From assembly GCF_030013205.1 (NCBI RefSeq), contig NZ_CP122648.1: a stretch of DNA of 64,000 bases. One strand, written 5' to 3'. Of the stretch, positions 22,791-31,700 are shown piece after piece. Position numbers: made by a program. The first letter of the stretch is position 1; each line of letters begins with the position of its first letter. The stretch comes from Escherichia coli (GTDB lineage: Bacteria > Pseudomonadota > Gammaproteobacteria > Enterobacterales > Enterobacteriaceae).

Positions 22791-25700
22791 GTCATCCTCT
22801 CAGACCAGCTAGGGATCGTCGCCTAGGTGAGCCGTTACCCCACCTACTAGCTAATCCCATCTGGGCACATCCGATGGCAAGAGGCCCGAAGGTCCCCCTC
22901 TTTGGTCTTGCGACGTTATGCGGTATTAGCTACCGTTTCCAGTAGTTATCCCCCTCCATCAGGCAGTTTCCCAGACATTACTCACCCGTCCGCCACTCGT
23001 CAGCGAAACAGCAAGCTGTTTCCTGTTACCGTTCGACTTGCATGTGTTAGGCCTGCCGCCAGCGTTCAATCTGAGCCATGATCAAACTCTTCAATTTAAA
23101 AGTTTGATGCTCAAAGAATTAAACTTCGTAATGAATTACGTGTTCACTCTTGAGACTTGGTATTCATTTTTCGTCTTGCGACGTTAAGAATCCGTATCTT
23201 CGAGTGCCCACACAGATTGTCTGATAAATTGTTAAAGAGCAGCTGCGACGCGGCTTTCAGCTCACTGTCGCGAGGTGGCGTATATTACGCTTTCCTCTTT
23301 CAGAGTCAACCCTGAATTTCAGGGTTTTTCTCTTCAACCGAACCGGCTGTTTGTGTGAAGTGATTCACATCCGCCGTGTCGATGGAGGCGCATTATAGGG
23401 AGTCGGCTCAGGAAGACAAGCGGAAAAATGCATTTTTATTTCAACCGCTCATCTTTTAATCATTACGCCGGTTTTTGCTGCTTTTTTATCGCTTGCGGCA
23501 GGTCTGCCAGGCTATTTAACACCCAATCTGCCGCGTTTTCTGCTTCAGGTGTAATAAGTTTACCCGTACGCACCAGCACTTTTGTTCCCACGTTCGCCGC
23601 AGCCGCTGCCTGCATATCTTCTAATTTATCGCCCACCATATAAGAAGCGGCCATATCAATATGCAAATAATCGCGTGCCGATAAAAGCATCCCCGGATGT
23701 GGTTTGCGGCAGTCGCAGACCTGGCGAAACTCTTCAACACTACCCTGCGGATGATGCGGGCAATAATAGATACCATCCAGATCGACATCGCGGTCCGCCA
23801 GCGACCAGTCCATCCACTCGGTCAGCGTTTCAAACTGTGCTTCAGTAAATTTACCGCGAGCAATGCCAGACTGGTTGGTTACTACCACCAGCGCAAAGCC
23901 CATTTTTTTTAGCTCGCGCATGGCGTCAATAACACCGTCGATAAATTCAAAGTTGTCGATCTCATGGACATAGCCGTGATCGACATTAATGGTGCCATCA
24001 CGGTCAAGAAAAATTGCGGGTACGCTCTTCGCCACCTTTTATAGCTCCTTAATAAGGCATGTGACGCTAGTATCGCATGTTTCGACCAGCAAGAAAGTGC
24101 TCTTCGCATAAACCTGATTGATTTAGACGTCTGGATACCTTAACATCCATTTCATTGACGGCGTTGCCCGTTCCAGGCATTCGAAATGCCACGACTAACT
24201 TAATGACGATAATAAATAATCAATGATAAAACTTTCGAATATCACCAAAGTGTTCCACCAGGGCACCCGCACCATCCAGGCGTTGAACAACGTCAGCCTG
24301 CATGTGCCAGCTGGACAAATTTATGGCGTTATCGGTGCCTCAGGCGCGGGTAAGAGTACGCTTATACGTTGTGTAAACCTGCTGGAGCGCCCAACCGAGG
24401 GTAGCGTGCTGGTCGATGGCCAAGAACTGACCACGCTGTCAGAATCCGAGTTGACCAAAGCTCGCCGCCAGATTGGTATGATTTTCCAGCATTTTAACCT
24501 GCTCTCTTCGCGTACTGTTTTTGGCAACGTGGCTCTGCCGCTGGAGCTGGACAACACACCGAAAGATGAGATCAAACGTCGCGTGACGGAGTTGCTGTCA
24601 TTGGTTGGTCTTGGCGATAAGCATGATAGCTACCCGTCGAATCTTTCCGGTGGGCAGAAACAGCGTGTGGCGATTGCCCGTGCGTTAGCCAGCAATCCCA
24701 AAGTATTGCTGTGTGATGAGGCCACCAGCGCGCTGGATCCGGCAACGACACGTTCTATTCTCGAACTGCTGAAAGACATCAACCGCCGTCTGGGTTTGAC
24801 GATTCTGTTGATCACCCACGAAATGGACGTTGTGAAGCGTATTTGTGATTGCGTGGCGGTCATCAGCAATGGCGAACTGATCGAGCAGGACACGGTAAGT
24901 GAAGTGTTCTCGCATCCGAAAACGCCGCTGGCGCAGAAGTTTATTCAGTCGACCTTGCATCTGGATATCCCGGAAGATTACCAGGAACGTCTGCAAGCGG
25001 AGCCATTCACTGACTGCGTGCCGATGTTACGTCTGGAGTTTACCGGTCAATCGGTCGATGCCCCACTGCTTTCTGAAACCGCACGTCGTTTCAACGTCAA
25101 CAACAACATTATTAGCGCGCAGATGGATTACGCCGGTGGCGTTAAGTTCGGCATCATGCTGACTGAAATGCACGGCACACAACAAGATACGCAAGCCGCC
25201 ATTGCCTGGCTGCAGGAACACCATGTAAAAGTAGAGGTACTGGGTTATGTCTGAGCCGATGATGTGGCTGCTGGTTCGTGGCGTATGGGAAACGCTGGCA
25301 ATGACCTTCGTATCCGGTTTTTTTGGATTTGTGATTGGTCTGCCGGTTGGCGTCCTGCTTTATGTCACGCGTCCGGGGCAAATTATTGCTAACGCGAAGC
25401 TGTATCGTACCGTTTCTGCGATTGTGAACATTTTCCGATCCATCCCGTTCATTATCTTGCTGGTATGGATGATTCCGTTTACCCGCGTTATTGTTGGTAC
25501 ATCGATTGGTTTGCAGGCAGCGATTGTTCCGTTAACCGTTGGTGCAGCACCGTTTATTGCCCGTATGGTCGAGAACGCTCTGCTGGAGATCCCAACCGGG
25601 CTAATTGAAGCTTCCCGCGCAATGGGTGCCACACCGATGCAGATCGTCCGTAAAGTGCTGTTGCCAGAAGCACTGCCGGGTCTGGTGAATGCTGCGACTA

Positions 25701-28700: not shown

Positions 28701-31700
28701 GGTAGCGCCTCTCACGAATTCCAGGTGCTGGCGCAGAGCGGTGAAGACGATGTGGTCTTCTCCGACACCTCTGACTATGCAGCGAACATTGAGCTGGCAG
28801 AAGCTATCGCGCCGAAAGAACCGCGCGCTGCTGCTACCCAGGAAATGACGCTGGTTGATACGCCGAACGCGAAGACCATCGCGGAACTGGTTGAACAGTT
28901 CAATCTGCCGATTGAGAAAACGGTTAAGACTCTGCTGGTTAAAGCGGTTGAAGGCAGTAGCTTCCCGCTGGTTGCGCTGCTGGTGCGCGGTGACCACGAG
29001 CTGAACGAAGTTAAAGCAGAAAAACTGCCGCAGGTTGCAAGCCCGCTGACTTTCGCGACCGAAGAAGAAATTCGTGCCGTGGTTAAAGCCGGTCCGGGTT
29101 CACTGGGTCCGGTAAACATGCCGATTCCGGTGGTGATTGACCGTACCGTTGCAGCGATGAGTGATTTCGCTGCTGGTGCTAACATCGATGGTAAACACTA
29201 CTTCGGTATCAACTGGGATCGCGATGTCGCTACCCCGGAAATTGCTGATATCCGTAACGTGGTGGCGGGCGATCCAAGCCCGGATGGCCAGGGTACACTG
29301 CTGATCAAACGTGGTATCGAAGTTGGTCACATCTTCCAGCTGGGTACCAAGTACTCCGAAGCACTGAAAGCCTCCGTACAGGGTGAAGATGGCCGTAATC
29401 AAATCCTGACGATGGGTTGCTACGGTATCGGAGTAACGCGTGTAGTAGCTGCGGCGATTGAGCAGAACTACGACGAACGCGGCATCGTATGGCCTGACGC
29501 TATCGCACCGTTCCAGGTGGCGATTCTGCCGATGAACATGCACAAATCCTTCCGCGTACAGGAGCTTGCTGAGAAACTGTACAGCGAACTGCGCGCGCAG
29601 GGTATCGAAGTGCTGCTGGATGACCGCAAAGAGCGTCCGGGCGTGATGTTTGCTGATATGGAACTGATCGGTATTCCGCACACTATTGTGCTGGGCGACC
29701 GTAACCTCGACAACGACGATATCGAATATAAATATCGTCGTAACGGCGAGAAACAGTTAATTAAGACTGGTGACATCGTCGATTATCTGGTGAAACAGAT
29801 TAAAGGCTGATGCCAGAAAGGGTCCTGAATTTCAGGGCCCTTTTTTACATGGATTGTATAAAATGGATAAACCAAAGGCGCATTGCTGCCTGCTTCTCCC
29901 CTGCTTTCTTTTCCTTTCGGCCTGTACCGTAGATATCAGCCAGCCAGACTCATCAGCCACAGCGGTAGATGCCGGGGCGAAAACATGGGCAGTCCAATTC
30001 CAGCATCAAAGCTCTTTCACCGAACAATCAATAAAAGAAATAACGGAACCTGATCTCAAACCCGGCGATTTGCTGTTCTCCTCAAGCCTTGGGGTAACCT
30101 CATTTGGAATCCGCGTCTTCAGCACTTCCTCTGTGAGTCACGTTGCAATCTATCTGGGTGAAAATAACGTTGCAGAAGTGACAGGCGCTGGCGTCCAGAT
30201 TGTTTCCCTCAAAAAAGCGATGAAGCATAGCGATAAGCTTTTCGTCTTACGAGTCCCGGATCTTACCCCGCAACAAGCCACAGAAATCACCGCGTTCGCC
30301 AACAAAATTAAAGATAGCGGTTACAACTATCGCGGCATTGTCGAATTTATTCCCTTTATGGTGACTCGCCAGATGTGCTCACTGAATCCGTTCTCCGAGG
30401 ATTTTCGTCAACAGTGCGTCAGCGGCCTGGCGAAAGCGCAGTTAAGCAGTGTGGGCGAAGGAGACAAAAAGTCGTGGTTTTGTTCGGAATTTGTCACTGA
30501 TGCATTTGCCAAAGCCGGGCATCCGCTTACCCTGGCGCAATCGGGCTGGATTAGCCCTGCCGATCTGATGCATATGCGTATTGGTGATGTCTCTGCGTTT
30601 AAGCCAGAAACGCAGTTACAGTATGTTGGGCACCTGAAGCCAGGGATTTATATCAAGGCGGGTCGCTTTGTTGGGCTGACTCAGTGATGAAAGCCGGAGA
30701 ATGCTCCGGCTTTCAATTACTGCCCCAAACTACTGCAATCCTGGTTCGGGTAAAATTTACCTGCCGTATCGGGCGCTAATACTTTGGTTGGCGCACCGGT
30801 ATCCGGATTAGCCTCAAGCGTAAAGTGACCTTCTACTGACAGTAACATCGGTTTTTCACTATGACCGCGCGCCGCCAGGTAGCCACGCTCCAGCTCTGCA
30901 TTATTCGCTACCATGAAACGTTTTCCGGTCGCGCAATCAGTGAAGGTCGCCGCATCAGCCATATAAAAATACATGCCCCGCAGGGTCATCGGCGTCATGG
31001 GTAAACTGGATTGCGCCGGTTCCAGCGTATAGTTGAACTGCGATTCAATCGGATTACCTTCACGATCGAGCATCTCCAGCGCATCGCCTTTCGCCCGATA
31101 ATATGACTTTTCACCTTTGCTGTCGGTTAATACCAGCTTGTCAGCGGTTCGCGCCCATGTACCGTAGGAAGCGAAAGAGGAAGGCTCTTCACGCGCACCA
31201 AGATAGCGTTCATTCATCACCCAGGTTCCATCTTTTTCGAGGAACAAAGAGGTTTCGATCCCTTCGCAATCGGCACACGGCAGCACGCCGCGCCAACTTT
31301 GCGGCATCGGTTTCAGTTCGGCAGCCTGCGCCGGAGAAAGCGTGTCGACTTCGGCCCGATTATTACATCCCATCAGAGTAAAGAGGCTGATTACAGCCAT
31401 CGCTGTCACTATCGCTTTTTTCACCATCCATTCCTTCTTTTTATTCCCGACCGCTGCGCACTTTGCCGCGCATCGCCTTCACGCTTGATTTTTGTGCTTT
31501 CGATGCCAGCCTGCGCTCTTTTGATGCGCGGGTGGGCCGCGTGGGTCGTCGGGCTTTTTGTTCTGTTGTTAAATCTTTAATCACTGCCACCAGCCGGGCC
31601 AGCGCCGCTTCGCGGTTGAGCTCCTGATTGCGGTATTCCTGTGCCTTAATGACAATCACGCCATCACTGCTGATCAAATGATGGCTGGCGGCGAGCAGAC

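What the first reader, a model, noticed from the sequence alone, without database searches (positions are those of the whole stretch)
23306..29840. Same 14-bp palindromic core (CCTGAATTTCAGGG) in the rrnH P1-P2 spacer and the proS terminator
The hairpin between rrnH P1 and P2 (aaccctgaatttcagggtt, 23306-23324) and the proS terminator hairpin (gggtcctgaatttcagggccc, 29820-29840) share an identical 14-nt palindromic core. It could be coincidence or a small dispersed palindromic unit.
Basis: seen in the sequence. Interest (0 to 1): 0.15.

Follow-up and report, generated by a model that had tools for sequence, protein, structure and literature searches.

The report
Chance match between two unrelated hairpins
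The same 14-letter hairpin word does sit next to an E. coli ribosomal RNA promoter and in the terminator of the proS gene, but this is a coincidence between two ordinary, unrelated elements and not a repeated genetic unit.

Summary
The 14-mer CCTGAATTTCAGGG is present exactly at 23311-23324 and 29824-29837. Identity extends 0 nt on either side, and it joins the rrnH antisense strand to the proS sense strand.

A shared 14-mer is not unusual here. The window holds about 30 unrelated pairs of 14 nt or more. About 6% of Markov-simulated 64-kb windows, and about 0.13 events per window in real unrelated DNA, contain a shared hairpin-type 14-mer.

The exact identity depends on a rare SNP. The window's allele is in 103 of 5,426 E. 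coli genomes. The common allele (5,422 genomes; rrnD, rrnE and rrnH) shares only 13 nt with the proS terminator.

The two sites have separate histories. Salmonella and Citrobacter koseri keep the rrn sequence but have quite different proS terminators, and every genus examined has its own proS terminator stem.

The proS copy is a canonical intrinsic terminator. The rrn copy is the dyad abutting the P2 -35 hexamer, at the expected UP-element position. It lies inside a sub-threshold match to Rfam Ysr197, and other genera carry different stems at the same position.

Verdict: coincidence, low interest.

The parts
23308..23326 (-). rrnH P2-upstream dyad. The sense strand reads AACCCTGAAATTCAGGGTT, giving an 8-bp stem and 3-nt loop. 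Its 3' arm ends in the TT of the P2 -35 hexamer, so it occupies about -36 to -54 of P2 and about +70 to +90 of the P1 transcript.
   Evidence: Sequence. Fold -15.4 kcal/mol, z -3.0 on the sense strand. Same element in K-12 rrnD/E/H, with T for the first C. Anchored-stem shuffle test P=0.002.
23311..23324 (+). Copy 1 of the shared 14-mer CCTGAATTTCAGGG (antisense to rrnH). Base 23324 (G on the + strand, C on the rrn sense strand) is the rare SNP that creates the 14th matching base.
   Evidence: Allele counts: 103 versus 5,422 of 5,426 genomes.
23282..23309 (-). rrnH P2 core promoter: -35 TTGACT at 23309-23304, 16-nt spacer, -10 TAATAT at 23287-23282.
   Evidence: Consensus scan. Invariant in all seven K-12 rrn operons.
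23392..23419 (-). rrnH P1 core promoter: -35 TTGTCT at 23419-23414, -10 TATAAT at 23397-23392.
   Evidence: Consensus scan. Alignment with K-12 rrn P1 promoters.
23219..23466 (-). Full-length but sub-threshold match to Rfam RF02849 Ysr197, which covers rrn P1, the P1-P2 spacer, P2 and the start of the leader. The model's consensus structure has a hairpin at the position of the dyad.
   Evidence: 144.1 bits (gathering score 167), E 8.6e-37, model positions 1-254.
21556..23097 (-). 16S rRNA gene of rrnH. It fixes the orientation of the operon.
   Evidence: Rfam SSU_rRNA_bacteria, 1576 bits.
28038..29810 (+). proS open reading frame, stop TGA at 29808-29810. The annotated 572-aa protein would start near 28092 (inferred).
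   Evidence: ORF list. BLAST annotation as proS. 572-aa orthologues.
29815..29846 (+). proS intrinsic terminator. The GC-rich stem-loop GGGTCCTGAATTTCAGGGCCC is at 29820-29840 and contains one U.G pair. AAA/UUU pairing extends the stem to 29815-29845. The T-run TTTTTT is at 29841-29846. It starts 5 nt (extended stem; 10 nt for the GC-rich core) after the proS stop and ends 8 nt before the yaeF ORF.
   Evidence: Fold -21.6 kcal/mol, z -4.28. Every orthologous locus has a hairpin plus U-run at the same place.
29824..29837 (+). Copy 2 of the shared 14-mer, in the proS sense orientation.

Best explanation
The two sites are unrelated hairpin-forming sequences that share a 14-nt word by chance. A palindromic word carries only about half the information of an ordinary one, which makes such a match easier. 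A rare SNP in this strain's rrnH also adds the 14th matching base.

The proS copy is a canonical Rho-independent terminator. It is a GC-rich stem followed by a U-run just after the proS stop codon, and it releases the proS transcript before yaeF. This function is inferred from anatomy and position.

The rrnH copy is the dyad that abuts the -35 hexamer of the rrn P2 promoter in the rrnD/E/H class of operons. As DNA it occupies the expected UP-element position of P2, with an A-tract followed by GAAATT. As RNA it can form a hairpin in P1-initiated leader transcripts. Which of these two roles is selected is not shown here.
For: 1) Identity is exactly 14 nt with 0 nt of extension and unrelated flanks, and it joins opposite strands relative to transcription.
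2) Chance rate: about 30 unrelated exact pairs of at least 14 nt in this window. In simulations, 6.1% of 6000 Markov windows show a shared hairpin-type 14-mer. Real unrelated DNA (1.08 Mb) holds 36 such pairs, about 0.13 per 64 kb, and another pair turned up in only 100 kb of extra K-12 DNA.
3) The window allele is in 103 of 5,426 E. coli genomes, usually in one operon. The common allele is in 5,422 genomes with a median of 3 places, and it shares only 13 nt with the proS terminator.
4) The rrn element belongs to promoter paralogy. K-12 rrnD, rrnE and rrnH carry it, while rrnA/B/C/G carry AAGCA...TGCTT instead.
5) Separate histories: Salmonella, C. koseri and Escherichia sp. F1 keep the rrn sequence, but only Escherichia has the matching proS terminator. 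Across the 12 other taxa, terminator stems differ between genera (Enterobacter and C. koseri share CCCCGC/GCGGGG), yet in the eight taxa folded they form hairpins of -16 to -25 kcal/mol.
6) There is no further family. The proS terminator query gives a median of 1 place per genome at E<=10, K-12 annotates no repeat element there, and 324 kb of E. coli and relatives' DNA holds no extra CCTGAAWTTCAGG sites.
7) Terminator anatomy of the proS copy.
Against: At the single-window level the coincidence is uncommon but not rare (P about 0.06-0.13). I could not count the word over a whole E. coli chromosome. In the common allele, both hairpins read TCCTGAA-N-TTCAGGG on their sense strands, with a U.G pair at the same stem position. 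That is a closer functional resemblance than the exact-word length suggests.
Confidence: 0.9

Rival explanations
1. The 14-mer is the core of a small dispersed palindromic repeat (REP/BIME-like or a miniature mobile unit) that has landed at both sites.
For: Both copies are extragenic and hairpin-forming, and they lie 6.5 kb apart. The word is over-represented compared with shuffles of the window.
Against: Flanks are not conserved. There is one proS-type place per genome, and the only rrn-type places are the rrnD/E/H paralogues. The rrn copy is fixed at the same promoter position in Salmonella and C. koseri, which lack the proS match. The 14th base is a rare SNP. K-12 annotates no repeat there.
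Confidence: 0.02
2. Both dyads are binding sites for one dimeric DNA- or RNA-binding factor that links rRNA P2 activity to proS-yaeF expression.
For: The common alleles share the symmetric TCCTGAA-N-TTCAGGG in sense orientation.
Against: The proS stem sequence is not conserved outside Escherichia. The rrn inner stem differs in Erwinia, Yersinia, Kluyvera and the rrnB class, which argues for structure rather than sequence recognition. No paper in the library mentions either word in this context.
Confidence: 0.02
3. Convergence through shared function: the rrnH copy is also an intrinsic terminator, acting on the plus strand to stop antisense transcripts from running into P1 and gmhB.
For: On the plus strand the window allele is an 8-bp stem followed by TTTTTCTCTT. 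The scan calls it terminator-like, and it folds at -14.1 kcal/mol, z -4.1.
Against: In the allele carried by 5,422 of 5,426 genomes, the plus-strand hairpin has an A.C mismatch and folds at -8.1 kcal/mol, z -0.94. Serratia's stem pairs only through wobbles on the rrn sense strand. The T-run is simply the complement of the A-tract upstream of P2. No plus-strand promoter is known or was found upstream.
Confidence: 0.05

Closest known systems
Rho-independent (intrinsic) transcription terminators of Enterobacteriaceae
   Same: The proS copy has a GC-rich stem, a short loop, a run of 6-7 U immediately 3', a position 10 nt after the stop codon, and an upstream A-run that gives a bidirectional look. 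Orthologous loci keep the structure but not the sequence.
   Different: Nothing unusual. It has one U.G pair in the stem. In Escherichia it sits between two co-oriented genes (proS and yaeF), whereas in most relatives it sits between convergent proS and nlpE.
rrn P2 promoter upstream region / UP element (rrnB P2; Ross et al. 1998 J Bacteriol 180:5375 and Murray et al. 2003 J Bacteriol 185:28, both recalled from memory because the papers are not held)
   Same: The rrn copy occupies about -36 to -54 of P2, directly upstream of an invariant TTGACT, and is preceded by a conserved GAGAAAAA tract.
   Different: It belongs to the rrnD/E/H sequence class, not the studied rrnB class, and it is a strong dyad (8-bp arms). 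No experiment on this class's P2 upstream region was found.
Rfam RF02849 Ysr197 ('Yersinia sRNA 197')
   Same: The region 23219-23466 aligns to the whole model (E 8.6e-37), and the model's consensus structure has a hairpin at the dyad's position. Ysr197 is reported as abundant in exponential phase, repressed in stationary phase and multi-copy, as expected for an rrn P1 leader.
   Different: The score of 144 bits is below the gathering score of 167. The Yersinia stem (AACCAACU/AGUGGUU) differs from the E. coli stem.
REP/BIME (PU) extragenic palindromes of E. coli
   Same: Short, extragenic, hairpin-forming.
   Different: There are no multiple copies, no conserved flanks or cluster organisation, and no repeat annotation at either site. 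I did not run a formal comparison with the REP consensus.

Membership tests
Dispersed palindromic repeat family (REP/BIME-like) | Many copies per genome at unrelated extragenic sites | tested here: not met
   The proS-type query gives a median of 1 place per genome at E<=10. The rrn-type query gives a median of 3, which are rrnD/E/H. No extra CCTGAAWTTCAGG occurs in 164 kb of E. coli plus 160 kb of relatives. A whole-chromosome exact count was not possible.
Dispersed palindromic repeat family (REP/BIME-like) | Sequence similarity extending over the whole unit, or conserved flanks | tested here: not met
   Identity is exactly 14 nt with 0 nt of extension on each side.
Dispersed palindromic repeat family (REP/BIME-like) | Copies co-occur in related genomes | tested here: not met
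   Salmonella and C. koseri have the rrn copy but unrelated proS terminator stems.
Intrinsic terminator (proS copy) | Stable GC-rich stem-loop in the sense transcript | tested here: met
   -21.6 kcal/mol, z -4.28, with 0 of 200 shuffles folding as well.
Intrinsic terminator (proS copy) | U-tract immediately 3' of the stem, just downstream of a stop codon | tested here: met
   TTTTTT at 29841-29846; stop codon at 29808-29810.
Intrinsic terminator (proS copy) | Transcripts actually end there | not testable with these tools
   This needs 3'-end mapping or in vitro transcription.
Intrinsic terminator (rrnH copy, plus strand) | Stable stem plus U-tract in a transcript that reads into it | tested here: inconclusive
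   The window allele folds at -14.1 kcal/mol and is followed by UUUUUCUCUU. The common allele folds at -8.1 kcal/mol, z -0.94. No plus-strand transcription unit was identified.
rrn P2 UP element | A+T-rich DNA at about -38 to -59, directly upstream of the -35 hexamer | tested here: met
   The position abuts TTGACT. The GAGAAAAA tract is conserved in almost all taxa (Erwinia reads CGGAAAAA, the JGI locus GAGAATA) and a GAAATT-like proximal part is present. The similarity to the UP consensus was judged by eye only.
rrn P2 UP element | Alpha-CTD-dependent stimulation of transcription | not testable with these tools
   This needs promoter fusions or in vitro transcription with alpha-CTD-deleted polymerase.
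Rfam RF02849 Ysr197 | Score at or above the curated gathering threshold (167 bits) | tested here: not met
   144.1 bits, although the match is full-length with E 8.6e-37.
Conserved RNA hairpin in the rrn P1 leader | Base pairs maintained by compensatory changes across lineages | tested here: inconclusive
   Anchored stems with at least 5 different inner sequences give per-sequence shuffle P values from 0.0001 to 0.14 in 13 of 14 promoters. Within the D/E/H class there is no covariation signal. RNAalifold on a MAFFT alignment finds only 3 pairs at -0.7 kcal/mol.

The most novel reading that the evidence does not exclude
The dyad abutting the rrn P2 -35 hexamer is a selected structural element of enterobacterial rrn operons. 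It would be an RNA hairpin in P1-initiated leader transcripts, or a DNA dyad, that modulates P2 use, with lineage-specific stems kept by compensatory change. The proS match would still be coincidence. A reading in which both sites share one binding factor is not strictly excluded, but I put it at 0.02 or below.
Probability: 0.2. Interest if true: 0.3.

Novelty: not a real feature. Interest (0 to 1): 0.08.

Why it matters
It matters little. The result removes a false lead: short palindromic words shared by two hairpins inside one 64-kb window are expected several times per E. coli genome and should not be read as repeat families. The useful by-products are modest. The rrnD/E/H promoter class carries a strong dyad fused to the P2 -35 hexamer. 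A dyad recurs at that position across Enterobacterales with different stems. Rfam's 'Ysr197 sRNA' family appears to be the rrn P1-P2 promoter and leader region.

Tried and rejected
All were single hits in unrelated phyla with no Enterobacteriaceae, so it gave no per-genome count.
3) The first chance simulation timed out and was rewritten.
4) BLAST cannot detect 14-nt matches in the 28-Gb E. coli collection. I therefore used SNP-discriminating 47-mers and a 57-nt terminator query.
5) Literature: neither word appears in a relevant paper. Maeda et al. 2015 describe rrn promoter heterogeneity but not this dyad. Murray 2003 and Ross 1998 are not held. A search for 'turnstile attenuation' and pausing in the rrnB leader found nothing relevant.
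6) Permissive Rfam hits at the proS terminator (rimP leader and others, E 0.1-0.9) are noise.
7) By eye only, with no search run, I compared the dyad with the Cra/FruR and LacI-family operator pattern and rejected it. The CTGAA half-sites are 1 nt apart here, not about 4.
8) I fetched only 2 x 50 kb of extra K-12 DNA for an empirical null, because the annotation tables were costly.
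Full report
**Observation.** The window is an E. 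coli chromosome segment, 100% identical over 7 kb to swine ETEC strains. rrnH lies on the minus strand, with 16S at 21556-23097. CCTGAATTTCAGGG occurs exactly at 23311-23324 and 29824-29837.
- The proS hairpin coordinates (29820-29840) are right.
- The consensus scan places P1 at 23419-23392 and P2 at 23309-23282 on the minus strand.
- So the palindrome lies in the P1-P2 spacer, and its last two bases are the TT of the P2 -35 hexamer TTGACT.
- The identity stops dead at both ends of the 14-mer.
- Because rrnH is on the minus strand, the match pairs rrnH antisense with proS sense. In sense-sense orientation the longest common word is 7 nt.

**Is it more than chance?** A shared 14-mer is not. 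The window contains 25 direct and 17 inverted maximal exact matches of at least 14 nt, about 30 of them between unrelated sequences. The only special property is that the word is a hairpin, which roughly halves its information content.
- In 6000 order-3 Markov simulations of the window, 365 (6.1%) contained a shared 14-mer, in either orientation, holding a perfect stem of at least 6 bp with a loop of at most 4 nt.
- Among 1.08 Mb of unrelated bacterial loci there were 36 such shared words, which scales to about 0.13 per 64 kb.
- Only 100 kb of extra K-12 DNA already held another pair, ATTCAGCAGCTGAA.
- With about 72 such windows per genome, several within-window coincidences of this kind are expected per E. 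coli genome.

**The rrn copy is promoter paralogy, and the 14th base is a rare SNP.** I aligned the seven K-12 rrn promoter regions.
- rrnD, rrnE and rrnH all read GAGAAAAATCCTGAAATTCAGGGTTGACT.
- rrnA/B/C/G read ...AAAGCAAAAATAAATGCTTGACT at the same place.
- K-12 has T where the window has C, so K-12 shares only 13 nt with the proS terminator.
- SNP-discriminating 47-mers show the window allele in 103 of 5,426 complete E. coli genomes (106 places, usually one operon). The T allele is in 5,422 genomes (14,613 places, median 3 per genome).

**Separate evolutionary histories.** gmhB lies between the two sites, so I fetched gmhB-anchored loci from 12 other taxa. Synteny of proS-tsaA-rcsF-metQIN / gmhB-rrnH is conserved.
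- At rrnH, Salmonella, C. koseri and Escherichia sp. F1 are identical to K-12.
- Cronobacter (TTAAGGG), Enterobacter (TAACGGG), Klebsiella and a JGI contig change the 3' arm without compensation.
- At proS, only Escherichia sp. F1 has the E. coli terminator.
- The other genera have different stems, for example Salmonella GGCCTCGCACCCTGCGAGGCC, C. koseri CCCCGCTGATGCGGGG, Cronobacter GGCCCTCAACAGAGGGCC and Serratia CCCGCCTCGGCGGG.
- In the nine taxa folded the stem-loop has -16 to -25 kcal/mol; in all 13 a stem followed by a T-run sits directly after proS.
- So the rrn element predates and outlives any match to the proS terminator, whose stem turns over as terminator stems usually do.

**No family.**
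- A 57-nt proS terminator query in sensitive BLAST mode at E<=10 finds a median of 1 place per genome.
- K-12 annotation shows no repeat feature at either site.
- No extra CCTGAAWTTCAGG occurs in the 324 kb of E. coli and relatives' DNA I hold.
This is the main gap in the evidence.

**What each copy is.** The proS copy is a textbook intrinsic terminator.
- The stop codon is at 29808-29810.
- The stem GGGUCCUGA/UCAGGGCCC contains one U.G pair.
- UUUUUU lies at 29841-29846.
- It folds at -21.6 kcal/mol, z -4.3.
- The yaeF ORF starts 8 nt later.
- Termination itself is inferred, not shown.

The rrn copy sits where the P2 UP element would be. The conserved GAGAAAAA tract and the A/T-rich GAAATT fit that role. 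The existence of an rrnB P2 UP element is from my memory of Ross 1998 and Murray 2003, which are not held.

**An unexpected lead on the rrn copy.** With permissive thresholds, 23219-23466(-) matches the whole of Rfam RF02849 Ysr197 at 144 bits (gathering score 167), E 8.6e-37. The consensus structure of that model has a hairpin at exactly this position, with a different stem. Ysr197 is reported as exponential-phase-specific and as one of the most frequently annotated multi-copy 'sRNAs'. That is what an rrn P1 leader would look like.

More distant taxa support a recurrent dyad:
- Erwinia has a perfect AACCTCT-GAAAA-AGAGGTT|GACT.
- Serratia has an 8-bp stem that pairs only via U.G and G.U wobbles on the rrn sense strand.
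- The rrnB class has AAGCA...TGCTT|GACT, and Kluyvera has AAGCG...CGCTT|GACT.

I ran an anchored-stem shuffle test, requiring the 3' arm to end at the TT of the -35 hexamer. It gives P of 0.0001-0.0035 for E. coli, Serratia and Erwinia, and P<=0.15 for 13 of 14 promoters.

This evidence is only suggestive, for four reasons:
- The anchor was chosen after seeing the data.
- The sequences are related.
- Pair counts within the D/E/H class show no covariation beyond shuffles.
- RNAalifold on an unbiased MAFFT alignment finds only three pairs at -0.7 kcal/mol.

The common U.G allele favours a sense-strand RNA hairpin (-12.8 kcal/mol) over a plus-strand one (-8.1 kcal/mol, z -0.94).

**Verdict.** The match reaches 14 nt only in about 2% of E. 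coli genomes. It is not a dispersed palindromic unit.

Noticed in passing
window 23219-23466 (-): Rfam RF02849 'Ysr197 sRNA' aligns end to end with the rrnH P1 promoter, P1-P2 spacer, P2 and leader start (144 bits, below the gathering score of 167). Together with its reported exponential-phase expression and multi-copy annotation, this suggests the family is really the rrn promoter/leader region and not a free-standing sRNA gene.
   Followed up: partly
window 23304-23326 (-); L142 (Erwinia), L140 (Serratia), L129 (Kluyvera) and K-12 loci L001-L007, just upstream of TTGAC: A dyad whose 3' arm ends in the TT of the rrn P2 -35 hexamer recurs across Enterobacterales and in both promoter classes. 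The inner stems differ: CCTGA, CCTCT, GCA, GCG and a Yersinia type.
   Followed up: partly
window 4471-4523, inside ORF 2773-5382 (+): A tandem hexamer repeat (TCAGAG), about 9 copies, encodes a (Glu-Ser)n run inside an 869-aa ORF. By eye the ORF looks ClpV/ClpB-like, with a Walker A motif (GEAGVGKS). No family search was run.
   Followed up: partly
window 9641-9717 and 17864-17940: A 77-nt exact direct repeat. The copy at 17867-17940 is the tRNA gene at the 3' end of rrnH, so the other copy is a second identical tRNA gene about 8 kb away. The anticodon was not checked.
   Followed up: no
window 22905-22918 and 23173-23186: An exact 14-nt direct repeat (GTCTTGCGACGTTA on the + strand; TAACGTCGCAAGAC on the rrn sense strand) is shared by the rrn leader and the 5' domain of 16S rRNA. 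Chance or functional mimicry was not examined.
   Followed up: no
window 29854-30687; L128, L134 versus L129-L133: A yaeF-like gene lies between proS and nlpE in E. coli and the JGI locus L128; Escherichia sp. F1 (L134) has an equivalent uncalled ~840-nt gap whose start matches yaeF. It is absent in Salmonella, C. koseri, Kluyvera, Enterobacter and Cronobacter. In those taxa proS and nlpE converge on one terminator that looks bidirectional (A-run, stem, T-run).
   Followed up: partly
L129 (Kluyvera) about 10640-10790: The rrn operon downstream of gmhB in Kluyvera carries the rrnB-class P1-P2 spacer, not the rrnH class. This suggests promoter-region exchange (gene conversion) between rrn operons.
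   Followed up: no
L128 16821-20340: A phage-type integrase and TraC-like genes lie directly downstream of the rrnH operon in this JGI enterobacterial contig. This may be an integrative element.
   Followed up: no
window 21117-21225 (-): An Rfam StyR-44 match (125 bits) lies in the spacer just upstream of the 23S rRNA gene.
   Followed up: no
L138 (K-12 1,028,979 and 1,034,408): Another chance pair of hairpin-type shared 14-mers (ATTCAGCAGCTGAA) turned up in only 100 kb of extra K-12 DNA. It illustrates how common such coincidences are.
   Followed up: yes
L135 (Klebsiella pneumoniae CP043670.1): Almost every gene in this locus, including proS, metQ and tilS, is called in fragments. This suggests many frameshift errors in that assembly.
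   Followed up: no
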